Of a stretch of DNA of 60,360 bases, positions 2,136 through 59,500 are shown in pieces (position 1 is the stretch's first letter; every line of letters starts with the position of its first letter). Where the stretch lies: positions 1-60,360 of the forward strand of contig CAZCXI010000002.1 of assembly GCA_964502635.1 (NCBI GenBank), in the 5' to 3' direction. The position numbers were made by a program, and so were the translations under genes. Below the pieces are notes generated by a model. It saw only the letters and a program-made list of their open reading frames with translations, did not search any database and was not told the origin of the DNA. The DNA is from an uncultured Desulfobacterales bacterium (GTDB lineage Bacteria; Desulfobacterota; Desulfobacteria; Desulfobacterales; C00003060).

Positions 2136-3062
2136 CTATTCGCTTCGTCTTGCCAACTTCGTTGCAAAGATGGCAATTAAGCCGCCAAGCATGACGTAAC
2201 CAATGATAACCTCAATCGTTAGCCATATTTCAGCTGCTAGGTTTTTTGGAACCACGTCACCAAAACCGAGTGTTGTAAAAGTCACGATGCTGAAGTAATA
2301 GGGTGTAAACCATGTTGCTGATCGGCCATGAAGATCAACATCGGGCGCCATGTGAACAAGCCACTCGGGAAACCACGTTGGTGCAGAGTATTCAGCGTAA
2401 GCAACGCCGCAAAGCACCGCAATGAACAACGACCATCCAACCCAGAGCAACATGGAACGTCCGCAATCCGAGCTAACAGCCCATATGAAATGTTTTATGG
2501 GATGATTGATTCTAACTTCTTCGATAAACTCATTGTCCTTGGCATCCCGTATGAACCTCGGGCTACCACTGCAACCCTGAAGATTTATCCCTCTACACCT
2601 GCCCAACTTCTTATATTGGGCCCCAAGAACAAAGACATTTTGTAAATCCGCACCCAAAAAACTGGCTCTTTCGAGGTGCGCACCTCCAAGATCGGCTCCT
2701 TCAAGGCGTGCACCCATAAAATCGGCTCCTTGAAGGTGTGCACTCCGAGCATTAGCTCCTTCAAGGTGTGCATAAAGAAGATTGGCCCTTTCAAGGTGGG
2801 CACCCCCGAGATCGGCTCCTTCAAGGTGCGCATGAAGAAGATTGGCCCTTTCAAGGTGCACACCCCCAAGATCGGCTCCTTCAAGGCGTGCACCCCCAAG
2901 ATCGGCTCCTTCAAGGCGTGCACCCGAAAGATCGATCCCTTCAAGGTGTGAAAGCCCGAGATTGGCTTTTTCAAGGTCGGGCCTGATGTCGGGGTGTTCC
3001 TTCCGCCATGTGTTCCAAGCCTCGACCCCTTCCCCAAGTTTATTGTAGTGCTCTTGATTCAC
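2136..3062 (-). CDS. pentapeptide-repeat protein fused to a 2-TM potassium-channel pore domain
   Basis: Long run of A(D/N)LxG pentapeptides (GADLGGAHLERANLL...). C-terminal TM-pore-TM with selectivity-filter-like TTLGFGDV. Start placed at GTG 3062, preceded by GGGGAGG; the open frame extends to 3245. Confidence 0.8.
   Translation of the reverse strand: MNQEHYNKLGEGVEAWNTWRKEHPDIRPDLEKANLGLSHLEGIDLSGARLEGADLGGARLEGADLGGVHLERANLLHAHLEGADLGGAHLERANLLYAHLEGANARSAHLQGADFMGARLEGADLGGAHLERASFLGADLQNVFVLGAQYKKLGRCRGINLQGCSGSPRFIRDAKDNEFIEEVRINHPIKHFIWAVSSDCGRSMLLWVGWSLFIAVLCGVAYAEYSAPTWFPEWLVHMAPDVDLHGRSATWFTPYYFSIVTFTTLGFGDVVPKNLAAEIWLTIEVIIGYVMLGGLIAIFATKLARRSE
2645..2975. repeat. about 30-nt tandem DNA repeat array encoding the pentapeptide repeats
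   Basis: The unit gatcggctccttcaaggcgtgcacccccaa recurs about 11 times. Copies at 2861-2920 are nearly perfect, and a 60-nt higher-order unit (..gcgcatgaagaagattggccctttcaaggtg..) is also seen. Confidence 0.85.
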
Positions 3063-4332: not shown

Positions 4333-5622
4333 ATGAAAAAGCATGTATCTGAAGAACTCTTTGCCAAGGCCAGAAAGGTCATCCCGGGTGGCGTCAACAG
4401 CCCGGTGCGTGCTTGCCGCTCGGTAGGTATGGATCCGGTCTTTATCCAGCGGGCAGAGGGCTCCAGGGTGTTCGATGCTGATGGCAATGAGTATATAGAC
4501 TATGTGGGGTCCTGGGGCCCCATGATTTTAGGGCATCGGCACCCGGAGGTCATTTCAGCCATTGAAGGCGTGCTGGCACGCGGCACCAGCTTTGGCGCAC
4601 CCACGGACCTCGAGGTGGAGCTGGCCGAGATGGTGATTGAGGCGGTTCCATCCGTGGAAATGGTGCGTATGGTAAACTCCGGCACAGAGGCCACCATGAG
4701 CGCCGTTCGCCTGGCAAGGGGCGTCACCGGCCGTGACCTGGTCATCAAGTTTGACGGCTGCTACCACGGCCACGGCGACACCTTCCTGGTGCAGGCAGGT
4801 TCCGGCGTGGCCACCTTGGGCATACCGGGGAGTCCGGGTGTGCCGGAGGCGTGCGTCAAAAACACCCTGTCCCTGCCGTATAATGATATAGAGCGCCTGG
4901 CGGCCGTGTGTTCGGAAAACGGGGATGCCATTGCGGCCGTCATTGTGGAACCCGTGGCCGGCAACATGGGCCTTGTGCCACCCAATCCGGGATTCCTGGA
5001 AACCTTGAGGGAACTGACTCAGGACCGCGAGATCATCCTGATATTTGATGAGGTCATGACGGGTTTTCGCGTGGCCTATGGGGGTGCCCAGGCCCTGTAT
5101 GACATCAGGCCGGACCTGACCTGCATGGGCAAGGTCATCGGAGGCGGACTGCCGGTGGGGGCCTATGGCGGCAAGCGGGAGATCATGAGCAAGATTGCCC
5201 CGGAAGGGCCTGTCTATCAGGCCGGCACGCTTTCCGGCAACCCGGTGGCCATGGCTGCCGGCCTGGCCACGCTGAAATGCTTGCAGCAGCCGGGCTTCTA
5301 TGACGGCCTCGAAGCCAGGTCAGCCATGTTGGCGGAGGGGCTGAAAGAAGCGGCCGGCAAGGCAGGCCTTGCGGTGGTGACGAACCGGGTAGGCTCCATG
5401 TTAGGACTGTTTTTTGCGGATCAGCCGGTTTCAAACTTTGCCGAGGCCCAGAAGAGTGATGTGGCCATGTTTGCGAGGTATTACAAGGAGATGCTCCAGC
5501 GGGGGATCTATCTGGCTCCATCTCAATACGAGGCGGCGTTCGTCTCAAGCGCTCACAGCGAGGCAGACGTACAGACGACCGTTCAGGCCGCTGGGCAGGT
5601 TTTTGAGCAGTTGATAATTTAA
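4333..5622 (+). CDS. hemL: glutamate-1-semialdehyde 2,1-aminomutase
   Basis: [28 protein letters not shown]-terminus and an aminotransferase class III body. ATG 4333 was chosen because the ORF extension back to 4051 overlaps the previous gene. Confidence 0.95.
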
Positions 5623-7517: not shown

Positions 7518-7571
7518 ACAGGGTTGCAACCGCTGTTCCCTGTGGCGGTCGCAACCCTGTCTGTCTTTTTG
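7518..7571 (+). terminator. rho-independent terminator after atpE
   Basis: 10-bp stem ACAGGGTTGC/GCAACCCTGT with inner ACCGC/GCGGT pairing, followed by CTGTCTTTTT. Confidence 0.65.
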
Positions 7572-7578
7572 GGTTAGA

Positions 7579-7785
7579 CTAGTGCCCATCCATGAATGCG
7601 GGCTACCCGAGCCGACATAGCTCGGTTGAGCCCTGCAAGGTGTTCATTCAGAAATGGTGGATTTTGGTCCGAGGCAAGGCCGCACAAGGGTTTTCGCCGC
7701 AGGCGCAGCAGCGCTGCGTTGATGATGCAAACCCGCGGAGAACGCCGCATTGGGCCCAAAGATGCCATTTATCGATGGACACTAG
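7579..7785 (-). mobile_element. 207-bp MITE-like interspersed element, copy 1 (CTAG-bounded, terminal inverted repeats)
   Basis: Its reverse complement aligns along its full length with 30418..30624. Both copies are exactly 207 nt, begin and end with CTAG, and have termini CTAGTG(Y)CCATC...GATGG(R)CACTAG. Confidence 0.6.
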
Positions 7786-7854
7786 ACTACTCTTCTTCAA
7801 TCTATCCCGTAACATTTAAAGCCCTTTAGCACACACTGGCTGACCAGCTGTCCG

Positions 7855-11298: not shown

Positions 11299-11357
11299 AA
11301 GCTGATTTACACGTGATTCATGCGGCTTTCGGAGATCCAAATCATATAATCAGGATC

Positions 11358-11458
11358 ATTTCCAAAAGAGTTGCTGGGACCATAAGGGTTCAAGGATTCA
11401 AGGGTTCAAGTAAAATGCTTGAAGAAAAGCACTCGACCCCTTGAACCCTCGAACCCTT
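11358..11458. repeat. mosaic REP-like repeat: module X plus inverted GGTTCAAGG-type heptad arms
   Basis: TTTCCAAAAGAGTTGCTGGGACCATAAGG is shared with the reverse complement of 38409..38439. AAGGGTTCAAGGATTCAAGGGTTCAAG faces CTTGAACCCTCGAACCCTT. The same heptad motif occurs at 38266..38296. Confidence 0.6.
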
Positions 11459-11580
11459 TGCATCAACTAATCGGGAGAAGAACCTATAATCAAAACAAGC
11501 CGGGCCGGCTCCGTCATGTTGGGCGAAATGAACGGCAATGTTCATATATTGTATCGGAAATCCGCTATCGTCAACCGATA

Positions 11581-11697
11581 TTGAAGCTCCCTGTAGCAAG
11601 CTACGGGGAATCTTCACCGTAAGGAACGCTGACTTTTTTGGATGCGCTCGCTAACCCCGCCGCAAGCAGCGGGGGATGCGCTCGTTTTTGCGGTTCA
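11581..11697 (+). repeat. about 119-nt double-hairpin REP-like unit (copy A)
   Basis: TTGAAGCTCCCTGTAGCAAGCTACGGGGAATCTTC...GCGCTCGCTAACCCCGCCGCAAGCAGCGGGGGATGCGCTCG...GCGGTTCA matches the reverse complement of 38290..38408 and 38513..38631. Confidence 0.7.
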
Positions 11698-11947
11698 TGG
11701 ACATCCATACGCTTTCGGATGGGAGGCGGGGTATCTCCGTAATCCAAGGCAGACCATGCCGCTGTTGCTTTGTCACGGTTGAAATACTGAGAAAAAACGA
11801 GTAGTATCAAAAAGGTGGTTTGAGATAAGTATGATTCACAAGAGCGGTTTGACTGGATATTGGAACAAAGACGCTTTGTTTGACAAGTGGCACCGGGTTG
11901 GTAAACGCTAAACCGTTGCGGAGCTGTGAGGCCCGAAAGGAGGCAAC

Positions 11948-28192: not shown

Positions 28193-30421
28193 GTGAAACC
28201 TCCCCTGATCGCGCTTAATTTCTGGGCCATACCGCCCTTTGTCAGTTTCATCACCCTGTTCGCCTTGGCCGGCCTGGCCGTGGTCAAGGGGAAGGGTAGA
28301 AAAGTCAACCTGCTTCTTGCGGCGATTTGTTTCCTGGGAGGGCTTTTGAGTCTGGACAAGGCCTTCGCATCGGTGGTGACCGATCCGAACCTGGCCCTAC
28401 GGATCAGTCGCGTAGATCACCTGTTCGTCGTCTTTTTTATCCCGGTCTACCTTCACTTCACTTATTCTTTCCTGGGCATGACTAGTCGAAAATGGCTCAT
28501 CCGTCTTGCCTACGTCTTCAGCGGGTGTCTGAGTATCTTCTCACAAGGGCACTATCACCTGTCAGGGGTGAAGCATTATTTCTTTGGTTACTATGCCCAG
28601 GGAGGCCCCTTGATTTATGTCTTTGGGGTCGCCAGCACGACAAACACGCTGTATTGCCTCTATCTTCTTTTTCGCAGCCTGAGGCAGGAGAAGGATCCGG
28701 ACCGCAAGAACAAGACAAAATACATTATCTTGGGCCTTGGTGGGGCGGCCCTCATGGCCCATTTCGACCTGTTGCCCCTGGCAGGGATCAGCTTTTACCC
28801 GTTGGGAAATTTCGCTTTCATTCCCATCCTCCTCCTGGGCTTTGCAGTACTGAAGCACGACTTGTTGGACATCGGGTTCATGGTTCAAAAGGGCCTGACC
28901 TACTCCGTGCTGACAGGTCTGCTCACGGGGACCTATGCCCTCATGATTATCTTGTTCAATCAGGTCTTTGAAGGAGTGGGGCAGAGATGGTCTATCCTTT
29001 TTTTCATCTCGTTTTTCCTTGTGATCGTCTTTGTCTTTGAGCCATTGAAAAAGCGAGTACAGCTTTTCATTGATCGACTGCTCTTCAAGGGAAAATACGA
29101 TTACCAAAAGACACTCATGGCCTTGAGTGATGCCATGGCTTCCATGCTGAACCTGGACGAGATCATGCACAAGACCCTCGGGACCCTGACCGAGGCCATG
29201 TATCTTGATCGGGGCTATGTCATGCTCGCCGATGATATCGGGGACGAGTTTCGGGTCCGCAGCCACATGGGCACCCTGTCAGACATTGAGGGCCTGTCCA
29301 TGACTCATGCGAGCCCCCTGATTCGGGAAACGGCTCGTCTGAATAGAGAGGTCACCCGGTACAACATCGAAGAATGGTCAGGCGCTTGCGATGATCCCTC
29401 TCGTTTCAGGGAAGATTTCGACCGCCTGGGCGGTACTGTGCTACTGCCTATCGTTTTCAAAGGGGACATGAAAGGACTTCTTGTCCTGGGAAACAAGAAA
29501 TCAGGGGACCTTTTCACGGCCCAAGACTTTGAACTCCTTCGCACCCTGGCCAACCAATGCGCTATCGCCATCGAGAATGCCAAGTCCTACCAGCTTATAG
29601 AAAATCTGAATGAAAACCTCGAGGCCATGGTGGACGAGCGGACCGAAGCACTGAAAAAAGCCCTGGAGGAGAAGGACAAGACGCAGGACCTCCTCATCAG
29701 ATCCGAAAGCCTGGCTGCCGTGGGTGCACTGGTGGCGGGCGTCGCCCATGAATTGAACAATCCCCTGGCCAGTGTTTCCAGTCTGGTTCAGTCAGCCGTG
29801 GAAACCATGGAAAAGGCATCTTCCGAGCCTGTTGCCGGGGCAACGGATCGTACGGAACAAGACGAGGAATTGGTTGATGATTTGAGATTTAGCCTGAAAG
29901 AATTGAATCGTGCCAAGGATATTGTGGCAAGCCTCCTTGGGATATCCCGTCAGACCCAAGAATACTCTGAACCTGTCATACTGAACGACGTGTGCAGAAA
30001 CGCCCTGAAAGTCCTCTACAACCGGTATAAACGGACCGGCATCGAGATGAACGAGGCCTACGAAGACGACCTGCCTGAAATTAGAGGAAATTTTTCCAAC
30101 CTGGGGCAGGTCTGCCTGAATATTATAACCAATGCCATCCAGGCCGTGGACAGCGATCAAGGGAGGATCGCCCTAAGGACCCGGTCCGATAAGGAAAAAG
30201 GGCTGGTCATCTTCGAATGTGAGGACAACGGCCCCGGAATCACAAAGGACGTCATGAGCAATATTTTCAAGCCGTTCTATACCACGAAGGAGGTGGGTAG
30301 AGGCACCGGCCTGGGGCTATATATCTCCTATGAGATTGTCCGCCGCCACAACGGCAACATCTTTGCCCATCATAACGCCCGAGGTGGTGCTACCTTCCGT
30401 GTGGAGCTGCCCGTCAGCTAG
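28193..30421 (+). CDS. multi-TM sensor histidine kinase with a GAF domain
   Basis: About 7 N-terminal TM helices, a GAF-like region, H-box AHELNNPLA, and HATPase N/G boxes (NAIQA, DNGPGI, GTGLGL). Confidence 0.9.
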   Translation: MKPPLIALNFWAIPPFVSFITLFALAGLAVVKGKGRKVNLLLAAICFLGGLLSLDKAFASVVTDPNLALRISRVDHLFVVFFIPVYLHFTYSFLGMTSRKWLIRLAYVFSGCLSIFSQGHYHLSGVKHYFFGYYAQGGPLIYVFGVASTTNTLYCLYLLFRSLRQEKDPDRKNKTKYIILGLGGAALMAHFDLLPLAGISFYPLGNFAFIPILLLGFAVLKHDLLDIGFMVQKGLTYSVLTGLLTGTYALMIILFNQVFEGVGQRWSILFFISFFLVIVFVFEPLKKRVQLFIDRLLFKGKYDYQKTLMALSDAMASMLNLDEIMHKTLGTLTEAMYLDRGYVMLADDIGDEFRVRSHMGTLSDIEGLSMTHASPLIRETARLNREVTRYNIEEWSGACDDPSRFREDFDRLGGTVLLPIVFKGDMKGLLVLGNKKSGDLFTAQDFELLRTLANQCAIAIENAKSYQLIENLNENLEAMVDERTEALKKALEEKDKTQDLLIRSESLAAVGALVAGVAHELNNPLASVSSLVQSAVETMEKASSEPVAGATDRTEQDEELVDDLRFSLKELNRAKDIVASLLGISRQTQEYSEPVILNDVCRNALKVLYNRYKRTGIEMNEAYEDDLPEIRGNFSNLGQVCLNIITNAIQAVDSDQGRIALRTRSDKEKGLVIFECEDNGPGITKDVMSNIFKPFYTTKEVGRGTGLGLYISYEIVRRHNGNIFAHHNARGGATFRVELPVS

Positions 30422-30624
30422 TGTTCATCCATAAATGGCATCTTTCGGCCCGATGCGGCGTTCTCCGCGGGTCTCCGTCCTCGACGTAGCGCTGCTACGC
30501 CTGTGGCGAAAACCCTTGTGCGGCCTTGCCTCGGACCAAAATCTGCCATTTATGAATGAACACCTTGTCGTGCTCAACCGAGCTATGTTGGTTCGGTGGC
30601 CCCGGGTTCGTGGATGGACACTAG
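30418..30624 (+). mobile_element. 207-bp MITE-like interspersed element, copy 2
   Basis: Same element as 7579..7785, in the opposite orientation. Its terminal CTAGs contain the TAG stop of the kinase (30419-30421) and the TAG stop of pdxA (complement of 30621-30623). Confidence 0.6.
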
Positions 30625-31631
30625 CTGGCTCTCATCCTTGTTATTGCCTGGTGGGCGGCCATGTCTATGGCGGCCAGCAGGCTCCCGGGGTCTGCCTTGC
30701 CGGTGCCTGCAATATCATAGGCTGTACCATGATCCACAGAGGTCCGCACGATGGGAAGACCCAAGGTTGTGTTCACGCCGTCGGAAAAATGGACCATCTT
30801 AAAGGGGATAAGGCCTTGATCGTGGTACATGGAGATGACCGCATCCCACCTATCTTTCAAAGCCCGATAGAACAGGGTATCTGCCGGGTAGGGACCCGAC
30901 ACATTGACCCCCGCCCTGGCAGCCTGCTGGAGAGCTGGGGAGATGACCTGGATCTCTTCATCTCCGAACAGGCCATCTTCCCCGGCATGGGGGTTTAAGG
31001 CCGCCACGGCAAGGGTGGGTTTGGGGATACCAAAGGAGTCTTTGAGGGCCTGGTTTGTAATGAGGATCGTCTTAAGGACGGCGCCGGTCGTCAGGCTGGT
31101 GGAAACCCGAGCCAGAGGCAGATGGGTCGTTACCAGAGAGACCCGGAGCCGAGTACCCGCGAGCATCATGACACAGTGTGAAGTTCTTGTCTGCTCAGCC
31201 AGAAGCTCGGTGTGGCCGTCAAAGTTGAACCCGGCTGCGTGCATGGCCTTTTTGTTGATGGGACACGTGGCCAGGCCGTGGATGCGGCCCTCCATGGCCC
31301 ACTTCACACCCTCGATGATATAGCTTACCATGGCCCGGCCGGTTGCTTGAGTAGGCCGGCCGGGTCGAAGCTGACTGCAATCCAGATCAGAGAGCCCCAC
31401 GACGTCTATCCTGCCGTATTGCCCGCCTGCGGCCTCGACGCCTTCAACGCCTCGAATGGTCAACCCGGCCCTCAGGAGCTGGTTTGTTGCAGCCAACACC
31501 TGGACATCGCCCAAAACAAAGAGGCGGCAGGTTTCATACGCAGATTGGCGGCAGAGGGCTTTGAGGATGATTTCAGGCCCGATCCCCACGGGATCTCCCA
31601 TGGTGATGCCTATAATGGGACGGTCGGTCAT
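30621..31631 (-). CDS. pdxA: 4-hydroxythreonine-4-phosphate dehydrogenase
   Basis: IGITMGDPVGIGPEI N-terminus, GHTE, and VDHGTAYDIAGTGKADPGS. RBS AAGGAAG lies before ATG 31631; the frame is open to 31682. Confidence 0.93.
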   Translation of the reverse strand: MTDRPIIGITMGDPVGIGPEIILKALCRQSAYETCRLFVLGDVQVLAATNQLLRAGLTIRGVEGVEAAGGQYGRIDVVGLSDLDCSQLRPGRPTQATGRAMVSYIIEGVKWAMEGRIHGLATCPINKKAMHAAGFNFDGHTELLAEQTRTSHCVMMLAGTRLRVSLVTTHLPLARVSTSLTTGAVLKTILITNQALKDSFGIPKPTLAVAALNPHAGEDGLFGDEEIQVISPALQQAARAGVNVSGPYPADTLFYRALKDRWDAVISMYHDQGLIPFKMVHFSDGVNTTLGLPIVRTSVDHGTAYDIAGTGKADPGSLLAAIDMAAHQAITRMRAS

Positions 31632-32379
31632 GGTGGCTTCCTTTGAGCCGTCGTACAACGGGCTGTGTTGGGCACGCTGCAATGGTTTCCCTACAGGTTC
31701 GGAACACAGAAGTCAAACGGCCGGGCAACTGAACACAACCCCTTTGCCGGCGCTGCCGGGGGTTCACGGTCCAGACCCCTTCAAACCGCTCCATAGGTCC
31801 TCTCGTCGGTCGTGTAAAGACCTTTATTTCCAGAAAAACAAAGTGTTAGGATATCACGTCATATTTAGTTACAATTCTTAGAAAACAGAAGAAAATGCGA
31901 GAAAATAGACGTTTTCTCAAACCGGGACAGATCTATACATGCACAACAAAATGCGCTATGGCTCTAAAATACTTCGACATAAGGGGGCTCGCAGGAAAAG
32001 GTGAGTGATAGAGCCTTTAAGAGCAATAGCGACATAACACAGTTCAATATTCGGATGTTATGACATGTTGAAAACTATTTCACGAGCCGGCCAAGACTCC
32101 CTCTTTTTCGGTTTGACAATGGATCGTTCCTGTTCTACAAAGCGCACATCCTTTCAGGGTGCGAGGCCGCACTTTTTGAATTTCTAATCAAAATCCAATA
32201 TTTTGGCGTTTTTTTAGACAAACGATGCGTCGACCCGGGATGCCTTATGCGCAAGATGCATGAAGACGATTGCGTGAACACCGGGCAATCGGGCAAGGCG
32301 CCCTCACCGTGATTTGGCATTGTTAATCGTTATGAAGGCAACAAGTATTTCAGAAGGTTCCCAGACAGTGAGTGACGCC

Positions 32380-33720
32380 ATGCAAGCCGCTTGGAATCGA
32401 GCCAAAACCGGCATCCACAAGAAGGTCCCTCACCACAACTTCATGCTCTGGGTTGAACCGCTGGCGTATGTCGCCCAGCGAGAAGAAGAATTTGTCCTAA
32501 GTTGTCCGACGGTTTTTTTCAAGAAGTGGCTCACGCGTCACTATCTCGGTCTGATCGAAAGAGAGCTGGAAGGGGCGTGTGGGAGACCATACCGTGTCAC
32601 TTTCAAGATTTCTGATGAGCCCAATGGAAATGGTTATCATGGGCACGAGGATGACCAACTCTTGCTTCCCCACGTCACCGACCGGCAACCCCAGCTGTCT
32701 GCACTTCATGCTGATTTCACATTCGATCAATTTGTCGTGGGAATATGCAACGATTTTGCCTACAACGCAGCCCTCTCATTGGCCTGTTCGAAAAACGTCT
32801 GTCACAATCCCCTCTTCTTGTTGTCCAATATCGGCCTAGGGAAAAGCCACCTTTCCCAGGCCGTAGCAAACCACATCTTGAGAAGTGACCCCACCCTCCG
32901 GGTTTGCTACATCACGGCTGAGGAGTTTACCAATGCCATGATTTGTGCGCTCCGCCATGACAGGATCGAGGAGTTCAAGGACAAGTATCGAAGGCAGTGC
33001 GACGTGCTGCTGTTGGAAGATGTGCAGTTTCTGAGTGGCAAGGTGAAGACACAGGATGAAGTGGCCTTCACGTTGGATGCCCTGTTGGAAGCCAAGAAGA
33101 AACTGATTTTTACAGGGACCTATCTGCCTCGTGACATCCCAAAGATGGATGAAAAACTGGCGTCACGGCTTTCGGCCGGTATCATTTCGAGCATTGAGTC
33201 TCCGGACCACGACACCCGTGTGCGGATCCTCAAGAAAAAAGCTTCGTTGAAACAACTCGATATTTCGGAAGATGTCGTGCATTACTTGGCGAGCAAGCTT
33301 ACCCAAAATGTGAGGCAACTTGAAAGCGGCTTGATCGGCGTTGGGGCTAAGGCCTCTTTGCTGAATCTCCCCATAGACACCGAGTTGGCCAAGAGTGTTG
33401 TAAAGAACATTGTGCGGCGGTCGCGAGAGATTACCATAGAACGGATTCAAGAACTCGTGTGCAAGTATTACAAACTTACTATGGAGGAATTCCTGTCGCG
33501 CTCCCGTAAGCGCCGTATTGCCCAGCCGAGGCAGATTGCCATGTATTTGGCACGACGCTATACAGACAAATCCCTCCACACCATCGGCCGAAGCTTCAAT
33601 CGGTACCACGCCACCACGTTGCATGCCGTAGGAACGGTGGAGAGACTGATTCGAGAAAACGGGCCTGTTCAGAAGCAGGTAGAGTTCCTTTCCACGAGGC
33701 TGGAATCAGGCGGTCTCTAA
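32380..33720 (+). CDS. dnaA: chromosomal replication initiator DnaA
   Basis: AAA+ core (NPLFLLSNIGLGKSHL, LLLEDVQF) and the C-terminal DNA-binding signature (IAQPRQIAMYLARRYT...GRSFNRYHATTLHAV). Alternative starts are at 32332 and 32314. Confidence 0.95.
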   Translation: MQAAWNRAKTGIHKKVPHHNFMLWVEPLAYVAQREEEFVLSCPTVFFKKWLTRHYLGLIERELEGACGRPYRVTFKISDEPNGNGYHGHEDDQLLLPHVTDRQPQLSALHADFTFDQFVVGICNDFAYNAALSLACSKNVCHNPLFLLSNIGLGKSHLSQAVANHILRSDPTLRVCYITAEEFTNAMICALRHDRIEEFKDKYRRQCDVLLLEDVQFLSGKVKTQDEVAFTLDALLEAKKKLIFTGTYLPRDIPKMDEKLASRLSAGIISSIESPDHDTRVRILKKKASLKQLDISEDVVHYLASKLTQNVRQLESGLIGVGAKASLLNLPIDTELAKSVVKNIVRRSREITIERIQELVCKYYKLTMEEFLSRSRKRRIAQPRQIAMYLARRYTDKSLHTIGRSFNRYHATTLHAVGTVERLIRENGPVQKQVEFLSTRLESGGL

Positions 33721-38235: not shown

Positions 38236-39969
38236 TTAATTGTTTATGATTCTTAAGCAGTTTACTCGAACCCTTGAACCCTCGAATCCTTGAACCGCGA
38301 AAGCGAGCGCACTCCCCGCTGCTTGCGGCGGGGTTAGCGAGCGAATCTGAAAATGAAAAACTTCCTTACGGTGAAGCCTCCCCGTGGCTTGCCGCGGGGA
38401 GGCTTCAATCCTTATGATCCTACCAACTCTTTTGGAAAAGAACCTTATGAATGCCCCCAACGTCAAGCAGCCTGCCGCAGCAATCGCCCAGACCAGCATC
38501 GCCATAGGTGTGTTGAACCGCAAAAGCGAGCGCATTCCCCGTAGATTGCTGCGGGGTTGGCGAGCGCATCCAAAAAAGTCAGCGTTCCTTACGGTCGAAG
38601 ATTCCCTGTAGCTTGCTACAGGGAGCTTCAATGTCTTGGGCGCCCATCCCGAGGCGGCCGCAGCCACAAAGCAGCCGAGGCTGCCACGGCCGCTGCCGTC
38701 AGCCCCCTCGCTGGGAGCAGCGGACTCCGGCGGTGCCGTGGCCTCAGGCAGCAATCCCATACCACTGGGATCAACGATCATGCCGTCTTCAATCCTGTCA
38801 GCATCACCCAAGTCAAAGTCTCCATCCTTGAGTTCGAGGTCAACATATGTGCCGTCAGGACTGAAATGGGCGTGCGCGTATTCCCGCCAGCCGTCTATTG
38901 CATCATACTTGTACCATCTGGCTCCGGTTGGCGCCGGTTCAGAAAGATACACCCTCACGGTCACCTGATCCCCGGGGTCCTGCACCTGCAAGGTAAAGCT
39001 CAGTAAACCCAGCGGGATGGTCACATCCTCGGGAATCGGTGACGGGGGGTTCACGGACTCGATATCGACGATTTCAGTCACATGCGGCGAATTTTCGATG
39101 CTCAACCCCATTTGCCCATTTCCCACGACCGTGTTCACGGACTTGATCTCAGACTGGAACAAATCGGGGATGCCGTCCCCATTCAGGTCGACACGGACAT
39201 CCACCTCCTGATCATCCGGTATGCCGTCCCCATCCAGGTCCGTGCCGGCGGCAAAGGGCAAGCCATTCAAGTGGTCCATGGCAAAGTAGGCCGGGGTATT
39301 CATGCCAAAGTCCCCCGTGTCGGAGGAACTCAAGGCAAACTCAAGGCTCATGACATCACCCAGACTGCTCAGATCCACCCAAGTCCACTGGTCCACGATG
39401 AAGTCCTTGGTGTTGTCATCAAAACGGTAGTCCGCCAGATAAAAGTCGACGGTGCCCGTCGGGTTGTTTTCCTCGTCCGTGCCGGTGATCGTCAGCTTGA
39501 ACCAATCCGGATCGTCTCCGCCGTCACCGCCAAACTTCTTGCTAAAGGCCCCGCCCTCCATGATCGTCCAGAAGGCGTAGGTCGTATTCGTCAAATAGGC
39601 GCCGGACACGGTGATCGGTTCAGAAAAAGTGACCGTGGGTATAATCCCATAGAACCCTGAGTACGACACCCCATAGTTGCTGGAGCTGTTGATCCCAACG
39701 CCCGTGATCGCGCTGTACTGGTTGCCGAAACCCCGGGTTTGTGTATCCGTCATGTTCGAGTATGCGAACCCTTCCCAGTACGGCCCATAGGTATCATCAT
39801 AAAGGTTGTTAAAACCGGCGCCGCCGCTGGTGAACCCCCCCGAACCATCAGAACCGTTCCAGTAAGAATCCGTGCTTAGGGAAAGATCTTCAAAATCGGT
39901 GACTTCAGCGTTTGCTGTGGCTGTTGTCAGCACAAACAGTGAAAGCAATGAAACAAGGATGTGTTTCAA
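38236..39969 (-). CDS. surface/secreted protein with a DUF4465-like N-terminal domain; the 3' end is encoded by REP-like repeats
   Basis: RBS AAGGAGG plus TTG 39969 gives MKHILVSLLSLFVLTTATANA. FEDLSL..SYWNGSDGSGGFTSG...FAYSNMTD...NQYSAITG resembles DUF4465 by recollection. The last ~130 codons run through the repeat units at 38262-38631. Confidence 0.65.
   Translation of the reverse strand: MKHILVSLLSLFVLTTATANAEVTDFEDLSLSTDSYWNGSDGSGGFTSGGAGFNNLYDDTYGPYWEGFAYSNMTDTQTRGFGNQYSAITGVGINSSSNYGVSYSGFYGIIPTVTFSEPITVSGAYLTNTTYAFWTIMEGGAFSKKFGGDGGDDPDWFKLTITGTDEENNPTGTVDFYLADYRFDDNTKDFIVDQWTWVDLSSLGDVMSLEFALSSSDTGDFGMNTPAYFAMDHLNGLPFAAGTDLDGDGIPDDQEVDVRVDLNGDGIPDLFQSEIKSVNTVVGNGQMGLSIENSPHVTEIVDIESVNPPSPIPEDVTIPLGLLSFTLQVQDPGDQVTVRVYLSEPAPTGARWYKYDAIDGWREYAHAHFSPDGTYVDLELKDGDFDLGDADRIEDGMIVDPSGMGLLPEATAPPESAAPSEGADGSGRGSLGCFVAAAASGWAPKTLKLPVASYRESSTVRNADFFGCARQPRSNLRGMRSLLRFNTPMAMLVWAIAAAGCLTLGAFIRFFSKRVGRIIRIEASPRQATGRLHRKEVFHFQIRSLTPPQAAGSALAFAVQGFEGSRVRVNCLRIINN
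38262..38440 (-). repeat. mosaic REP-like block: heptad motif plus 119-nt double-hairpin unit (B1) plus module X
   Basis: CTCGAACCCTTGAACCCTCGAATCCTTGAACC, then the unit 38290..38408 with hairpins CCCCGCTGCTTGCGGCGGGG and GAAGCCTCCCCGTGGCTTGCCGCGGGGAGGCTTC, then the reverse complement of the module X seen at 11358. Confidence 0.7.
38513..38631 (-). repeat. 119-nt double-hairpin REP-like unit (B2)
   Basis: Same orientation and architecture as 38290..38408. The hairpins are CCCCGTAGATTGCTGCGGGG and CCCTGTAGCTTGCTACAGGG. Confidence 0.7.
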
Positions 39970-40405: not shown

Positions 40406-40478
40406 ATGTCCCTTTTTTATCCTCAAACCGTTCTTGTGTCCACAACCCTGGCTCGCGAGGACGTGAGACGCGGTGTCT

Positions 40479-40657
40479 TGTGGCAGGTCTTCTGGCTCCC
40501 CCACCCTTCCAGCGGCCTTCCCATCCCCGGTCATCAGAACAGTGGCACAAAAATGCTAGAAAAGCTCCCTTTCCAAACGGAAAAGGGCGGGGTCACAGCG
40601 GCGGGCCCGCTCCCGATTCCAACGGGATTCCCTATTAAGCCCCAAAGGGCACCACAG
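40479..40657 (-). promoter_or_regulatory. cobalamin (B12) riboswitch aptamer
   Basis: The minus strand reads CUGUGGUGCC...UUAAUAGGGAAUCCCGU..GGAAUCGGGAGCGGGCCCGCCGCUGUGA...GCCACUG...GGGAAGGC...AGCCAGAAGACCUGCCACAAG. The B12 box and the GCCACUG core motifs are both present, and P1 is UGUGG/CCACA. Confidence 0.88.
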
Positions 40658-40662
40658 TTTGC

Positions 40663-40691
40663 CGTTTATGCCAAAACGGTTGCCGTGTCAA
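40663..40691 (-). promoter_or_regulatory. candidate sigma-70 promoter for the riboswitch transcript
   Basis: Perfect TTGACA (complement of 40686-40691), a ~17-nt spacer, then a weak -10 (TAAACG/CATAAA) just upstream of the P1 stem. Confidence 0.4.
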
Positions 40692-53024: not shown

Positions 53025-53411
53025 GTCATAACCTCCATCGATCTTGTTTCGTATTACAATAACATGAACGATATCGTTTGGCAATCCTATCGATGGTCAA
53101 CGGAATTGACCTGCAACCGCAGACGTCGCGAGCAGGAAAATGCTGCGCATTTTCCGCATAGCGACGGCAAGGCGGCAGCTCCGCCGAAGGCGGGGTTGTC
53201 TGGTCGAATGACTTGTGAGATGCGACCCTGTTCGTTTCAAGCCATCTTATCGCAGGTTTGTCCAAGAAACCTCAAGACTTCGGGCTCTGAATTCCTTGCC
53301 TGTTAGAGCATAAAGCAAACATTGGCAATGCTGAATCACTGATGCAGATAAAGAGGGAATACCTCCACCTCCACCAAAGGGATAGAAAAGCAACACGTGA
53401 CGCCTTCACGG

Positions 53412-56129
53412 TCACTTCTCATCCAGCACTTCCCGGACTGTTGTGGCTATATCGCGCTTCAGGAAAGGCTTCATCACAAAGGCACGAATGCCAATGGCCT
53501 TTGCCTCTGGTTCTGAAATCTTTCTGCTGAAACCCGTACAGAGAATCACCGGGATGTCAGGTCGGATCTTCATCAGTTCTGTGGCCAATTGATCCCCTGT
53601 CATGGTCGGCATGGTCATATCGGTAACAACCAGGTCAAATCTGCTCGGCTGGTTTCGAAAAACCTCCAAGGCTTCCAGGCTGCTTGTCCTGGTGACCACG
53701 CCATACCCAAGGCCCTCCAGCATCTGCTTTCCCAGGTTCACCAAGGAGAGCTCATCGTCAACAAGAAGAATGGTCTCCGATCCGGTGGGGAGAACTCCTT
53801 CCGCTGTGATCTCAGCCGGTGCGTCCTGTTCAACAACCGGGAGGTACACATGAAAGGTGCTGCCCTCGCCTGGCTCGCTGTATACCGTGATAGCACCACC
53901 GTGGCTCTTTACGATGCCATGGACCACAGAAAGACCCAAGCCGGTGCCTTCCCCCTTTTCCTTTGTAGAAAAGTACGGTTCAAATATCCGACTCACTGTT
54001 GACGGGTCCATGCCGTGTCCTGTGTCGGACACGATCAGTCTCACATAGAGCCCGGAGGAAACATCCGGGTGCTGGGCTACAAAGTCAGCATCGAGCAGCA
54101 CATCTTCAAGAGATACCTCCAGCACACCGCCCTTTTCCTCCATGGCATGGGCCGCATTGGCGCACAGGTTAATGACCACTTGATGGATCTGTGTGGGATC
54201 AGCCATGACCGAGGAATCGCTTAGCATACTTGGGACCATCTCAATGGTTCTAGGGATTGATGCCCGCAGGAGCCGGGTCGCTTCCCTTACCACCAGCTTC
54301 ACCTTGACGGGCTTGGTCTCCTGTTCGGTCTGGCGGCTGAAGGTAAGGATCTGATGGACCAGCTCCCTGGCCCGAACGCCTGCCTTGAGGACTTCATGTA
54401 AATCCGTTTGCACTGTTGGTTGGTCGGAGGTGCTATCCATGGCCATCTCGGCATAGCCTATCATGGCAGCCAGGATGTTATTGAAGTCGTGGGCAATGCC
54501 TCCGGCCAGGGTGCCGATGGCCTCTATTTTCTGGGCATGGCGAAGCCGTTCTTCCGCCATTTTCTGCTCTGTAACATCCCTTCCTATGGCTACAATGAAT
54601 TTCGCTCCCTTGGCACTTTCGTAAAGGCTCTTTTTGGTATGCAAGAAGATGGTTCTCCCTGAAGCGGCATTGGTGAGAGTTTCCTCGCTAAAATTCTCCT
54701 TGCCGGTTTCCAGCACCCCCTCATCCATCTTCCAGAAGACATCTGCTTCTGCCTTTGGAAAGTAATCGTAATCCGATTTCCCGAGCAACCCTTGCCGGGA
54801 AATCCCCGATATCTCACAGAACTTGTCATTGACCAGCGCCCAACGATGCTTCTCATCTTTGATGCAAATCGGATCAGCTATGCTATTCAGAATCGCATTC
54901 AAGAACGCCTCGCTTTCCTGCACTTCTTCCTCAGCCTGCTTCCGCTCTGTGATATCCTGAAAGGTCCCCCTCAATTTGACAATCTTGCCATCCCTCTCTA
55001 CAACTTCCCCAATAGCTTGGCACCATTTTAAGTTCCCTCTTTTTGTCTTGAGCATTGCTTCGAACCGCATGGGCTGTCTTGTTTCCACTAAGTTTTGCAT
55101 TTTCTTCTTTATCATCTCGCGATACTCCGGAAGATACCAATCTACATGTTCATTCGCTCCTGGTATTGGTTCGTCCGGTTCGATCTCGACAATATCGTAA
55201 GTCCCTTTCGTCCATGTTGCCTTGCCGCCTTTTTCAAGGTCCATCTCCCAACCACCGATCTTAGCGATATCCCCGACTCTGTTTAACAATCTCTCGCTTT
55301 CTTGCAGGGCCCTCTCCGCCTTCTTGCGTTCAGTGATGTCCCGACACACACAGAAGACCAGCTTCTGCCCCCCGTACACGGCCCCATTGGTGCTGATCTC
55401 GACGTCATAAAGCGTGCCGTCCTTGCGACGGTGCCGTGTCTCGAAGTGAGCGCCGGTATCGTCGACCGCCAGGATCATTTCCAGCAATTGCTCCTGCGTC
55501 CACTGGGTGTCCCAGTCCCACACGTGGAGCTGATGTAGTTCCTCCATAGAGTAACCGAGCATATTGGCATATTGCTGGTTCGCCTCGTGCACCTTGCCGT
55601 TTTGGTCGACGACAACGATCCCGTCTCTGGATTGCTCGACCAGAATACGGCGGCGGATCGCTTCGTCCCGCAGCACCTCCTCCGCCCGCTTGTGCTCAGT
55701 GATGTCTCTCGTATTTGCGATAACGCCTGCAATGCGATTACAATCATCCCGATACGGCAAATAGGTGACATCCACGAACCTTTTGCCCAATGTTGGATAG
55801 TTGAACCATTCCTGATAATTGACAATTTCGCCTTGCAGACATCGATCAAAATTCGGTTTAATAAACTGCTCGAAGACCTCCTTACCAAGGTATTCAGACA
55901 CGGTTAACCCTAAAAAATGTCCCCGATCAAATCCTGAAGCCCCTTCATAAGCATCATTGACAATAATATATCGATAGGTTTTATCGAGGAATGCGATACC
56001 ATCGGGAGTTGAAGAGACTATATTTTGGTATTTCTTCAGTTCTTCCACATACTCTTTGTTTTTAAGTCCAGCTTGTTCTAATTCCTGGACTCTTTTTTCC
56101 AATTGCTCATAGGTAGGTTTGTTGGTCAT
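53412..56129 (-). CDS. hybrid sensor histidine kinase (multiple PAS, HisKA-HATPase-REC)
   Basis: About 4 PAS/PAC modules (..DITERK.AE..), H-box [18 protein letters not shown], and a receiver domain (LLVDDE...[12 protein letters not shown]). Confidence 0.9.
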
Positions 56130-56512
56130 GAGCCCGTCCTCCCTTTGTCAAAAAGACAAAAAGGCCCCGCACAAACGTATCTTTGACACGATGAACGGAG
56201 CCCTGTTCGGTCCCATAGGGTTTCCCCTTTGAAATTCCTTATCTTTGAAGACGAGGCACCCTGAAGCAGAGGTAACTATATACCTTATTAACAGGAGTCG
56301 TCAAGTCGCAGTGCTAGCTGCCAGCGCATCCAAAAGCCATAACCACATCATGGGTCAGTTCAGCGCTACGCGAACGATAGCGGGGACGGCCACAAGTATA
56401 TGACTGTTTCGACACGACCACGTATGAATGACAGCGGGCATATTTAAACAACTGCTCCACGCAAGCTTAGGTTTATTTATGGCCGCATCTTATATCTGCA
56501 AAGCCTTCACGG

Positions 56513-59500
56513 TCACTTCTCATCCAGCACTTCCCGGACTGTTGTGGCTATATCTCGCTTCAGGAAAGGCTTCATCACAAAAGCTCGGATTCCCATGGCC
56601 TTGGCCCGTAGTTCATCAATCCTGTCGCTATGGCCAGTGCAGAGAATGATTGGGATGTCTGGGCGAATTCTAATGACTTCTTTGGCCAACTTATCGCCCG
56701 TCATATGGGGCATGGTCATGTCCGTAATCACGAGATCAAACTTGTCAGGTTGGGCACGGAATGCTTCCAGGGCCTCCAGGCTGCTCATCCTGGTAACAAC
56801 CGCGTAGCCCAGCCGCTCCAGCATCTTTTTTGCCAAGTTCACCAAGGGTTGCTCATCATCAACAAAGAGTATTCGCTCGCTGCCTCCAGGAACGGCTTCA
56901 GGGGCCTCGGCTTCTGGTATGACTCCGCTCTCAACAGCGGGAAGGAGTATACGGAAAGTAGCCCCTTTTCCAGGCTCGCTATCTACCATGATGACACCAC
57001 CATGGTTTTTCACAATACCATGGACCACGGCAAGCCCCATGCCCGTGCCCTGGTCTACTTCCCTTGTGGTAAAATAGGGGTCAAAGATCCGGTCCATTAT
57101 TTCCGGCTCAATGCCATGGCCTGTGTCACTTACCGTGAGCCTGACATAGTTTCCTGGCTTTAAATCATCATACTGGCGCACCGCATCCTCATCAAGCTCC
57201 AGGTCCTCCAGGCCTATCTCCAGGAGTCCCCCCTCTTCTGCCATGGCATGGGCCGCGTTGGTACAAAAATTGATCAATACCTGGCTTATCTGGGTGGCAT
57301 CAGCAGACACCGTGTCTGACTCGGCTGAAATATGCTGGCGAATGTCAATGGTGGTTGGAAGAGAGGATCGCAATAGTTTTACAGATTCTTTGATAATGGG
57401 GCTAAGTTTTACAGGCTTTCGCTCCAGTTCTGTCTGGTGGCTGAAGGCAAGAATCTGCTTTACCATATCTTTTGCTCGTAAGCAGGCTTTGCGCACCTCC
57501 TTCAGGTTCTCTTGGGCTGTATACCACTCAGGCACTTCATCCATGGCCAATTCCGCATTGCCTAAAATGATACCAAGGACATTGTTAAAATCATGGGCAA
57601 TGCCTCCAGCCAGCGTGCCAATAGCTTCCATCTTGTGGGCTTGCTGGAGTTGCGCTTCGAGTTTCTTCTTGTCAGTGATGTCTTCCACAACCTCTATGAA
57701 TCCTGTCGCCCTTCCATCTTTTCCCGAAATTGGAAAAGCTTGAATCCTCCCATTAAAACGGCTTCCATCGTCTCTTACGCCCTCAGCCTCAACCTCCTCT
57801 GGGTGACCAGTCCCCATAGCCCGAACTCCAGGACAATGGGAACACATCCTCTCTCGTTTTTCGAATTCCCTAAAACATTTCTTGCCGACGAAATCACTAG
57901 GAGATTTCTCAAACATTCTTCCCTGGGCAGCGTTTGTCATAATTATGTTATGATCTAAATCTATCAGTGTCACCCCAAGTTCAATATTCTCCACAAGAGA
58001 TCGGTAGTGCTCTTCACTCTCCCGCAGCGCCTCCTCCGCTCGCTTGCGCTCCGTCACGTCTATACCCGTTCCCAATATCTGGACGATTTGGCCCGATGAA
58101 TCGCATATGGGAGTCAAGTTGACTAAGACATCAATAAATCCTCCATCTCTTGTTTTTGATCTGAATTCATAGTTTCCTACGAACTCACCCTTTAAGACTT
58201 GGGCAAAGTTCTTCCTGACTTCTTCCATTGAATCAGCACTAATCAGATCAGATCCGTTTGTGCCAATGATCTCTTCGGCAGAATAGCCAACTTTTTCAGT
58301 CCAGAACCGGTTGACGAAACCAAAACTTCCATTAGCATCGAGAGAAAAAACGAAGCTGTTTGTGGATTCAATCAACATGCGATACATGCTTTCACTCTTG
58401 CGCAGCTCCTCCTCCGCCCGCTTGCGCTCGGTGATCTCACGCCTCAGATCACTGTGCGTCTTCATAAGCTGTTCCAACATCCTGTCGAATTCTCTTCCAA
58501 GGGTCCCGATTTCATCTTGGCGCTGCATGGATAGACGACGTGAAAGATCACCGGTCCTTCCAATTGATAGGGCATGCTCCGTCAAAGCTGTTATCGGCCT
58601 GATAATTGTTCGCTGCAAAAGCAACAACATCAATATCAGTACAACCAGTGCTGATATCGACGTTGAAGTCAACACATAGCTCATTGTAGCGTGTCCTTTA
58701 GCAGAGATTTCCCTTGGAATCTTTGCCTTTATCAGGAGCGCTGGTTCGTTTTTGATGTCGGGATAGTTCGCGTAAATCAGCAGGTGGCTGTCTTGTTGAA
58801 TCACATGGGATGATTCTTGTGTGATCCGATTTGAGATTTCTCTTGTGGGTTCAGCCAATGAATCATCCTGAACAGGAAAAACCTTAAAGGGCACTTGTGT
58901 TTGGTCAACGAGCATCTTCACCATCTCATCGTTAAAAAAACACCCCATAATTAAGGAACCTCGAGCTGGTCCCTCATCATTGCTAGTTAGAATTGGCCGA
59001 GAGGATACCAGCATGGGGCCTTGCTCAGTCATAAAAACGCCGCAGATCTTTGCCTCCGACAGGGGCCTCTCGCCCGTTTCGTATGAGATTAAAGGATGAG
59101 TCTTTGGGAAAGCATCTTTTGGAAAACCCGCCAGTTCCACGGGTTCTTCTGTTTCCAGGTCATATATCTCACCCCAAACCACTATCCCATGTGTGTCGAT
59201 GACATAGATGAGATTAAGTCTACTAGCTGTGAACGTACTCAAAACCAGGTTGCTCTCAACATATTCCTTGGACCGAGATTTAACGAAGTCATATGTATCG
59301 TCCCACGACGACCAATCCAAGCAAGTAGTGTCGAGATGCTCAACCTCTCTTGTAACTGCTCGCATGCAGCGCCGCAAATCCGTTTGGGCTTCTTGGTATT
59401 CAAGATCTGTAAAGCTTGGGAGAATAATGAATTGTTGGATGACATAATTCGCTGCCCCGGACAAAATAAATACACCAAATAAGATGAGCCCAACTATGGA

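What the first reader, a model, noticed from the sequence alone, without database searches (positions are those of the whole stretch)
30418..30624. MITE copy fills the gap between two convergent genes exactly, its terminal CTAGs supplying both stop codons
The kinase ends with TAG at 30419-30421, inside the left CTAG. pdxA ends with TAG on the other strand at 30621-30623, inside the right CTAG. If CTAG is a 4-bp target-site duplication, the ancestral site was a single palindromic CTAG in which the two stop codons overlapped, and insertion regenerated a stop for each gene. Copy 1 is also flanked by CTAG on both sides. CTAG (YTAR) 4-bp duplications are characteristic of IS5-group transposition. 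The element may also serve as a bidirectional terminator.
Basis: partly seen in the sequence, partly recalled or inferred. Interest (0 to 1): 0.62.

Follow-up and report, generated by a model that had tools for sequence, protein, structure and literature searches.

The report
MITE wedged between two convergent stop codons
A 201-base non-coding mobile element (a MITE) sits exactly between a histidine-kinase gene and pdxA and completes both TAG stop codons, but it belongs to a widespread family that duplicates 6 bases (TARYTA), not CTAG, so this is an ordinary if tidy case of a known kind.

Summary
The kinase ORF ends with TAG at 30419-30421 and pdxA with TAG on the other strand at 30621-30623. 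A 201-nt repeat (30421-30621) fills the gap, and a second copy lies at 7582-7782 (87% identical, inverted). All four ends read CTAG.

It is a MITE, but CTAG is not its duplication. Among 51 and 56 family copies from metagenomes and MAGs, 24 and 22 have perfect duplications of 6 bp (rarely 7). Random pairing of flanks predicts about 3. The target consensus is the palindrome Y-TARYTA-R.

The G and C of the "CTAGs" are the invariant first and last bases of the element. TAG arises as TA (host) plus G (element). Copy 1 has a perfect 7-bp duplication, TAGTCTA. Copy 2 has a decayed one, CAGCTA/TAGCTG.

This excludes both a 4-bp IS5-type and a 2-bp IS630-type duplication. No autonomous parent element was found.

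Family-wide, about half of occupied sites abut the stop codon of a long ORF, against about 14% of free TARYTA sites.

More distant relatives without the element have the two genes overlapping by 11-23 nt. Closer relatives carry different family members at the same junction, so the site has been hit or turned over repeatedly.

No U-tract terminator is present, and no RNA data could be found.

The parts
28193..30421 (+). Sensor histidine kinase ORF (742 aa), stop codon included.
   Evidence: HisKA_7TM, GAF, HisKA and HATPase_c domains; HATPase_c reaches residue 741 of 742.
30415..30420 (.). Left flanking hexamer CAGCTA. It is the left copy of the decayed 6-bp target duplication and also encodes the last kinase codon (Ser) plus the TA of the stop.
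   Evidence: L001 has a perfect CAGCTA/CAGCTA duplication at the same junction.
30419..30421 (+). Kinase stop codon TAG, made of TA from the flank plus the G that is the first base of the element.
30421..30621 (+). MITE copy 2, 201 nt, with termini GTGTTCATCC...GGATGGACAC.
30421..30563 (+). Core unit: a 143-nt near-perfect hairpin with 36-nt arms. It corresponds to the 141-142-bp basic form of the family.
   Evidence: pair I1; -87.9 and -100.8 kcal/mol, z = -5.4 and -8.5; 141-142-bp elements with their own 6-bp duplications.
30564..30621 (+). 58-nt tail that ends in a second, shorter right-end repeat (GTGGATGGACAC).
   Evidence: The family has length classes of about 141, 175-188 and 200-225 bp.
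30621..30623 (-). pdxA stop codon TAG, made of TA from the flank plus the last base of the element (C on the + strand).
30622..30627 (.). Right flanking hexamer TAGCTG, the right copy of the decayed duplication (4 of 6 match the left copy).
30621..31682 (-). pdxA ORF (353 aa), stop codon included.
   Evidence: PF04166, positions 1-286 of 286.
7582..7782 (-). MITE copy 1, 201 nt, in the opposite orientation. It is intergenic, between an ATP synthase subunit c gene with its own terminator and a Rex-like gene.
7575..7581 (.). One copy of the perfect 7-bp duplication of copy 1. It reads TAGACTA on the + strand and TAGTCTA in element orientation.
7783..7789 (.). The other copy of the 7-bp duplication of copy 1.

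Best explanation
The 201-nt sequence at 30421-30621 is a non-autonomous transposable element (MITE). Its family is abundant in uncultured marine and salt-marsh Desulfobacterales. The family has 18-20-nt terminal inverted repeats (GTKTCCATCCATAAATGG...) and folds into a long hairpin. It inserts by a DDE-type staggered cut that duplicates 6 bp (occasionally 7) of a palindromic, stop-codon-rich target, Y-TARYTA-R.

The element always begins with G and ends with C, and the duplication usually ends in TA. Each junction therefore reads TA|G inward, which is a TAG stop codon in one frame. The duplication itself usually begins with TAA or TAG in a second frame.

At this locus the element landed where the 3' ends of the kinase gene and pdxA met or overlapped. 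The duplication gave each gene its own copy of the shared bases, and the element's terminal G and C completed a TAG for each, leaving both proteins at about full length.

Shown: MITE anatomy, the 6-bp duplication, the target consensus, the association with stop codons, and the positions of the stop codons. Inferred: the exact ancestral sequence, DDE chemistry, and whether the stop-codon association comes from target choice or from survival of harmless insertions.
For: Anatomy:
- Two copies in the window, 86-87% identical.
- The TIR motif occurs 3 times in the window against 0.01 expected.
- Both strands fold far better than shuffles, z = -5.4 and -8.5.
- No Rfam match.

Copy number:
- Contig depth over the element is 20-50 times that of the flanks in salt-marsh metagenomes.
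- A scan with a 20-mer from the element core found at least 118 metagenome contigs.
- A scan with the TIR found at least 117 MAG contigs.

Duplication length:
- 24 of 51 full copies have a perfect 6- or 7-bp duplication, against 3.2 expected from shuffled pairing (p about 7e-16).
- An independent set gives 22 of 56.
- Copy 1 has the perfect duplication TAGTCTA.

Target:
- Flank composition over 296 distinct ends: Y(-7) T(.70) A(.76) R Y T(.84) A(.78), then the element's G.

Stop codons:
- Of 67 incoming ORFs of at least 90 codons, 23 end exactly at the junction TA|G and 18 end at the first triplet of the duplication.
- In reconstructed empty sites most of these ORFs stop at the same position.
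- 20 of 41 occupied sites are stop-associated, against 51 of 374 free non-genic TARYTA sites (Fisher p = 6e-7).

This locus:
- Relatives without the element have the two genes overlapping by 11-23 nt.
- The kinase's last domain and the PdxA domain are both complete.
Against: - Copy 2 does not itself show a clean duplication: CAGCTA against TAGCTG, 4 of 6. The 6-bp rule is therefore imported from the family. If the original was TAGCTA, both differences are synonymous third-position changes, but that is conjecture.
- No empty site was found in a close relative or in 8 metagenome runs.
- No autonomous element or transposase with matching ends was found. Mobility is inferred from duplications and copy number only.
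- The ORFs used for the stop-codon statistics were not checked to be real genes.
- The class of 'free' control sites is approximate.
Confidence: 0.8

Rival explanations
1. The element is 30422-30620, and CTAG is a 4-bp target-site duplication made by an IS5-group transposase. The ancestral site was a single CTAG that held both stop codons.
For: Both window copies are flanked by CTAG. IS5-related MITEs with CTAG/YTAA duplications do exist, for example MITEPsy1 (PMC3189936). Removing the element and one CTAG leaves both proteins unchanged.
Against: In the family, G and C stay at the ends whatever the flank (TAATTA|G...C|TAATTA and so on). Only about 25% of ends read CTA|G. The correlated flanks are 6 bp long. 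Copy 1's duplication extends to a perfect 7 bp, TAGTCTA, which a 4-bp model does not predict. L064 has CTAG on the left and CTAA on the right, yet a perfect TAACTA duplication.
Confidence: 0.03
2. An IS630/Tc1-mariner-type MITE. The element is G...C, the duplication is TA only, and the preferred target is CTAG.
For: Copy 2 shows only TA as a perfect repeat. IS630 duplicates TA within CTAG (PMC2577343, Table 1). 67% of family ends are preceded by TA.
Against: Positions 1-4 of the hexamer co-vary between left and right flanks, even when they are not TA-like: CAGCTA, GAGTTA, TCCTTA, CAGTTA, TTGAAA, TCTCTA. A 2-bp duplication cannot produce that.
Confidence: 0.04
3. The copy has been co-opted. As a long hairpin at the 3' end of both convergent mRNAs, it acts as a bidirectional terminator, a barrier to read-through, or a block to 3' exonucleases. 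That function is why the junction stays occupied in several lineages. This is compatible with the MITE origin.
For: The hairpins are very stable on both strands. The junction is occupied in the window, in L001 and, as a remnant, in L008. Other bacterial repeats are enriched between convergent genes, and SPRITE repeats have been proposed to act as terminators (PMC3049150).
Against: No U-tract follows the hairpin on either strand, and the terminator scan finds nothing in the element. Copy 1 lies just beyond a separate canonical terminator. The occupants in the window and L001 are different family members, only 68% identical against 91-92% for the flanking genes. That pattern fits repeated insertion better than conservation. 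No RNA data exist.
Confidence: 0.15
4. Not a transposon at all, but a REP/BIME-like or structured-RNA element spread by another route, such as a RAYT-type enzyme or recombination.
For: It is a long palindromic structure, lies in intergenic 3' positions, and no transposase was found.
Against: Copy-specific direct repeats of fixed length flank the elements. That is the signature of staggered-cut transposition, and REP elements lack it. No Rfam family matches. In a TIR-selected alignment the interior is only moderately conserved.
Confidence: 0.02

Closest known systems
Pneumococcal BOX, RUP and SPRITE repeats (Croucher et al. 2011, PMC3049150)
   Same: They are small non-coding mobile repeats, significantly enriched between convergent genes. 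In 36 genes a BOX element encodes the stop codon without evident truncation of the protein. They fold tightly with their TIRs paired.
   Different: The host phylum and sequences differ. RUP is thought to be mobilised by an IS630-type enzyme (TA duplication; my own knowledge). BOX is modular and has no clear duplication. Here the duplication is 6 bp in a defined palindromic target.
MITEPsy1 of Pseudomonas syringae (IS5-family derivative, PMC3189936)
   Same: It is a bacterial MITE whose insertion sites contain CTAG or YTAA.
   Different: MITEPsy1 duplicates 4 nt and has IS5-like ends (GGAAGGT...). The present family duplicates 6 nt and has GTKTCCATCC ends.
IS630 and Tc1/mariner-derived MITEs
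   Same: The target is palindromic and centred on TA. IS630 prefers CTAG (PMC2577343, Table 1). The junctions read CTA|...|TAG.
   Different: They duplicate 2 bp, against 6 bp here.
Correia (nemis) elements of Neisseria, and ERIC/REP elements of enterobacteria (from my own knowledge, not checked here)
   Same: They are abundant hairpin-forming intergenic repeats, co-transcribed with neighbouring genes. They often abut or overlap the 3' ends of genes and can affect mRNA processing or stability.
   Different: Correia elements duplicate TA and carry promoter, IHF and RNase III features. REP elements have no duplication. None of these features was shown here.
ISNCY family, ISDol1 group (Desulfococcus oleovorans). 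A lead from memory only.
   Same: I recall ISfinder listing 6-7-bp direct repeats for this group, and its type host is in the Desulfobacterales. Both points would fit.
   Different: Nothing was tested. I had no ISDol1 sequence with which to compare TIRs or transposase.

Membership tests
Bacterial MITE | Short (under about 300 bp), with no coding capacity. | tested here: met
   The element is 201 nt. The family ranges from 141 to 250 bp. Only spurious ORFs cross it.
Bacterial MITE | Terminal inverted repeats. | tested here: met
   GTGTTCATCCA / TGGATGGACAC at the ends, and 36-nt arms within the core. The TIR is conserved across 296 distinct ends.
Bacterial MITE | Target-site duplication of fixed length that differs between copies. 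| tested here: met
   A perfect 6-bp (or 7-bp) duplication in 24 of 51 and 22 of 56 copies, against about 3 expected. Copy 2 itself is degenerate (4 of 6).
Bacterial MITE | Many dispersed copies. | tested here: met
   Two copies in 60 kb. Depth is 20-50 times the flanks. More than 118 and more than 117 contigs were found.
Bacterial MITE | An autonomous IS with the same ends that supplies the transposase. | tested here: inconclusive
   None was found in about 2 Mb of fetched loci. Whole genomes were not searched.
IS5-group derivative | 4-bp duplication of YTAR/CTAG. | tested here: not met
   The duplication is 6 bp, and G/C belong to the element.
IS5-group derivative | TIRs matching those of an IS5-family element. 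| not tested
   No IS5-family reference sequences were compared.
IS630 / Tc1-mariner derivative | 2-bp TA duplication. | tested here: not met
   All six flank positions co-vary between left and right.
ISNCY / ISDol1 derivative | 6-7-bp direct repeats (figure recalled from memory). | tested here: met
   6 bp in 43 copies and 7 bp in 3. The family's defining value itself was not verified from a source.
ISNCY / ISDol1 derivative | Ends matching those of an ISDol1-group element and its transposase. | not testable with these tools
   No ISDol1 sequence was available. The only papers found that mention it give no sequence.
Intrinsic (Rho-independent) terminator | GC-rich stem-loop directly followed by a U-tract. 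| tested here: not met
   The terminator scan finds none within 30418-30624 on either strand. The hairpin is followed by CTTGTCG on the + strand and TAGCTGAC on the - strand.
Any Rfam RNA family | A covariance-model match. | tested here: not met
   No hit up to E = 10 in 30300-30750.

The most novel reading that the evidence does not exclude
The family may be a 'stop-codon-homing' MITE. Its transposase would recognise an 8-bp palindrome (YTARYTAR) that is essentially two stop codons on each strand. Its invariant G...C termini rebuild TAG at both junctions. Insertions would therefore be aimed at gene ends and be protein-neutral by construction.

This would let the element colonise compact genomes. 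It would also let it re-colonise the same convergent junction independently in different lineages, as seen for kinase/pdxA in the window, L001 and L008. Under this reading the excess at stop codons reflects target choice, not only the survival of harmless insertions.
Probability: 0.3. Interest if true: 0.55.

Novelty: new member of a known kind. Interest (0 to 1): 0.38.

Why it matters
For annotation, the two stop codons are half host and half transposon. The kinase and pdxA 3' ends should be called as they stand, and the 201 nt between them should be masked as a repeat.

More generally, the locus shows how a transposon with a stop-codon-like palindromic target can separate two overlapping convergent genes without changing either protein. 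It also documents an undescribed and very abundant repeat family in uncultured sulfate-reducer lineages, which breaks metagenome assemblies at exactly these points.

If the target preference is real, the family would be a natural system for studying insertion that is neutral by design. None of this overturns what is already known about bacterial MITEs.

Tried and rejected
- Empty site. I laid contigs of 8 salt-marsh or marsh runs on the locus and found no joint that skips the element. The only pdxA-bearing Logan contig ends inside the element. The 63 pdxA loci from GTDB genomes contain no close relative with an empty site.
- Autonomous parent. I looked for inverted TIR pairs 600-5000 bp apart, for ORFs beside solo TIRs, and for multi-copy ORF clusters. 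Everything found was a host gene (GAPDH, EtfA/B, RseP, PurL and others).
- RNA evidence for termination. No usable RNA runs were found.
- Known RNA families. None match.
- Functional constraint on the element's interior. In a TIR-selected alignment the interior is only 30-80% conserved, so I rejected this as evidence of function.
- Orthology of the occupants in the window and L001. I rejected it: 68% identity, against 91-92% for the flanking genes.
- Tandem arrays as a frequent mode. Only 2 of about 290 ends, plus L001, so they are real but rare.
- Literature. I found no description of this family. The IS review I wanted for family duplication lengths is not held in the library.
Full report
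**1. What is there**

- The ORF at 28193-30421 (+) is a sensor histidine kinase with HisKA_7TM, GAF, HisKA and HATPase_c domains. Its last domain reaches residue 741 of 742. It stops at TAG, 30419-30421.
- The ORF at 30621-31682 (-) is PdxA with a complete Pfam domain. It stops at TAG, read as CTA on the + strand at 30621-30623.
- The DNA between them is one copy of a repeat. The other copy lies at 7579-7785 in inverted orientation; the pair is 207 nt and 86% complementary (aligned).
- CTAG occurs at 30418-30421, 30621-30624, 7579-7582 and 7782-7785.
- CTAG is strongly under-represented in the window: 39 sites against 119 +/- 9 in dinucleotide shuffles. Four of the 39 lying at element ends is not chance.

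**2. Anatomy**

- The ends are inverted repeats: CAGCTAGTGTTCATCCA / TGGATGGACACTAGCTG.
- Inside the element, 30421-30456 pairs with 30528-30563 (36-nt arms). Bases 30421-30563 thus form a 143-nt hairpin unit.
- A 58-nt tail follows and ends in a second, shorter right-end repeat.
- Both strands fold far better than shuffles: -87.9 kcal/mol (z = -5.4) and -100.8 kcal/mol (z = -8.5).
- Rfam has no match, even at E = 10.
- No hairpin-plus-U-tract terminator lies within the element.
- Copy 1 lies between an ATP synthase subunit c gene, which has its own canonical terminator at about 7544-7571, and a Rex-like repressor gene.

**3. The family**

- In salt-marsh metagenomes that hold this genome, contig depth rises from about 8-30 on the flanks to 600-1500 over the element. 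Assemblies break inside it.
- A 20-mer from the core found at least 118 metagenome contigs.
- The 18-nt TIR found at least 117 contigs of Desulfobacterales and other Thermodesulfobacteriota MAGs.
- The basic form is 141-142 bp with symmetrical ends GTGTCCATCC...GGATGGACAC. Longer forms of 175-188 and 200-225 bp carry a tail, as the window copies do.
- In an alignment chosen only by the left TIR, the interior is moderately conserved at 30-80% per column. Nothing there points to a constraint beyond that of a transposon.

**4. The duplication is 6 bp, not CTAG**

- Among 51 non-redundant full copies from metagenomes, 21 have a perfect 6-bp direct repeat at the two junctions and 3 have a 7-bp repeat. 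Random re-pairing of left and right flanks gives 3.1 and 0.1 (p about 7e-16).
- In the independent MAG set, 22 of 56 pairs have a perfect 6-bp repeat.
- The repeats differ from copy to copy: TAATTA, TAACTA, TAGTTA, TAGCTA, TAAATA, TATTTA, and also CAGCTA, GAGTTA, TCCTTA, TTGAAA and TCTCTA. The element always starts with G and ends with C.
- Over 296 distinct ends the flank composition is Y at -7, then T (.70), A (.76), R, Y, T (.84) and A (.78) at -1. The target is the palindrome Y-TARYTA-R.
- Only 25% of ends read CTA|G.
- The "CTAGs" of the window are therefore (C)TA of the duplication plus the element's G, and the element's C plus TA(G) of the duplication.
- Copy 1 has a perfect 7-bp duplication, TAGTCTA (7575-7581 and 7783-7789).
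- Copy 2 has CAGCTA on the left and TAGCTG on the right, a 4 of 6 match.
- A 4-bp IS5-type duplication is excluded (known example: MITEPsy1, CTAG/YTAA, PMC3189936). So is a 2-bp IS630-type duplication (TA in CTAG, PMC2577343).
- I recall that the ISDol1 group of ISNCY makes 6-7-bp repeats and comes from a member of the Desulfobacterales. That is a lead from memory and I could not test it.
- No autonomous element turned up in about 2 Mb of fetched loci.

**5. Stop codons across the family**

- Of 140 element ends with at least 300 nt of flank, 67 are approached by an ORF of at least 90 codons that is still open 9 nt before the junction.
- Of those 67 ORFs, 23 stop exactly at the junction TA|G and 18 stop at the first triplet of the duplication (TAA or TAG).
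- When the element and one copy of the duplication are removed in silico, most of these ORFs stop at the same position. Those insertions did not change the protein.
- The most common end configuration has stops in all three inward frames by element position +14 (77 of 286 ends).
- Per site, 20 of 41 occupied sites are stop-associated. Among free TARYTA hexamers in the same contigs the figure is 51 of 603, or 51 of 374 once sites inside long ORFs are set aside (Fisher p = 2e-10 and 6e-7).
- Caveats: the ORFs were not verified as genes, and the class of available free sites is approximate.
- I cannot tell whether the excess reflects target choice (the 8-bp consensus is two stop codons on each strand) or survival of harmless insertions.
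- The phenomenon has precedent. In S. pneumoniae a BOX element encodes the stop codon of 36 genes, and BOX, RUP, SPRITE and IS elements are all enriched between convergent genes (PMC3049150).

**6. History of this junction**

- Sixty-three pdxA loci were fetched. In 16 of them the kinase is the convergent neighbour.
- In L002, L062, L010, L012, L011 and L061 there is no element and the two genes overlap tail to tail. The span from one stop codon to the other is 11-23 nt. Only L061 has a CTAG there.
- L001 is the closest relative, with PdxA 86% identical. It reads, in kinase-to-pdxA order: CAGCTA | 175-nt element | CAGCTA | 37-nt remnant (GTTTCC...GGAAAC) | TAACTGG. The 175-nt element has a perfect 6-bp duplication. 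In L001 too, both genes end at junction TAGs.
- L008 keeps only the last 16 nt of a TIR next to the kinase stop.
- The occupants in the window and L001 are not orthologous. They are 68% identical, while the flanking 300 nt of both genes are 91-92% identical (80-83% at third codon positions). Window copy 2 is 87% identical to copy 1 and 85% identical to a copy in a much more distant MAG, L064.
- The junction has therefore been hit more than once, or its occupant has been replaced.
- Back-to-back elements that share one hexamer (L064, L141, L001) show that a new copy can land on the duplication of an old one. This is rare: 2 of about 290 ends, plus L001.
- For the window lineage, a 6-bp model with an original TAGCTA needs two later substitutions, both synonymous (GTT to GTC in the kinase, GCT to GCC in pdxA). 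It implies an 8-nt ancestral overlap of the two genes, close to the 11-nt overlap seen in L002, L062 and L061. This reconstruction is inference.

**7. Function**

- The sequence gives no support for a canonical bidirectional terminator.
- A long hairpin at the 3' end of both mRNAs could still slow read-through or block exonucleases. No RNA runs holding this locus could be found, so this remains open.
- I rate co-option as possible but unproven. The turnover of occupants at the site argues for repeated insertion rather than conservation.

**8. Verdict**

It is wrong on the length of the duplication and on the IS5 attribution. The terminator role is unsupported.
- It is a new, very abundant member of a known kind of element. 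Its stop-codon-like palindromic target is its most interesting property.

Noticed in passing
window 11349-11701 and 38255-38656: A second, unrelated repeat family in inverted orientation (83-95% identical), with two tandem sub-copies at 38290-38372 and 38513-38595. It contains GC-rich hairpins (CCCCGCCGCAAGCAGCGGGG; CCCTGTAGCAAGCTACGGGGA) and GGGTTCAAGG-type short repeats at its edges.
   Followed up: partly
window 40465-40671 (-): A cobalamin riboswitch, RF00174, at 89.8 bits. It is the only Rfam hit in the window.
   Followed up: no
window 32314-33720 (+): A DnaA-like ORF (468 aa) lies about 600 bp from pdxA, so the window probably spans the replication origin region (judged from the translation only).
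   Followed up: no
window 2619-3010: Nine overlapping copies of a repeat with a 30-nt period (64-77% identical), probably a coding decapeptide repeat.
   Followed up: no
window 53402-54554 versus 56503-57658: Two stretches about 3.1 kb apart are 73-77% identical, and a related 42-nt motif recurs five times. These look like paralogous genes with internal repeats (families D2, D4 and D5).
   Followed up: no
whole window: CTAG is three-fold under-represented: 39 sites against 119 expected from dinucleotide shuffles.
   Followed up: no
L233 3521-3662 and 5019-5160: Two 142-bp family copies, each with its own TATTTA duplication, bracket an EtfA-like gene just downstream of etfB. The etfB ORF ends at the TAA inside the first copy's TIR (position +14).
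   Followed up: partly
L233 3651 and L299 3462 (-): The right-end repeat ...ATGGATGGGCAC|TA contains an outward-facing ATG, so ORF callers start neighbouring genes inside the element (peptides beginning MDGHY...). This is probably a start-codon artefact.
   Followed up: no
L003 about 5054-5109 and L008 about 5000-5170: At the same kinase/pdxA junction these relatives carry other inserts: a CTCTATT tandem repeat in L003, and in L008 an unrelated inverted-repeat element (CTCCATCATGGGTGTAAATCA...) that sits inside the TIR remnant.
   Followed up: no
L231 336 and L252 5657 (-): Solo left-end TIRs lie directly upstream of rseP-like genes in two different MAGs (L220 has one next to an epimerase-like gene). 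These are truncated elements about 35 nt before a start codon.
   Followed up: no
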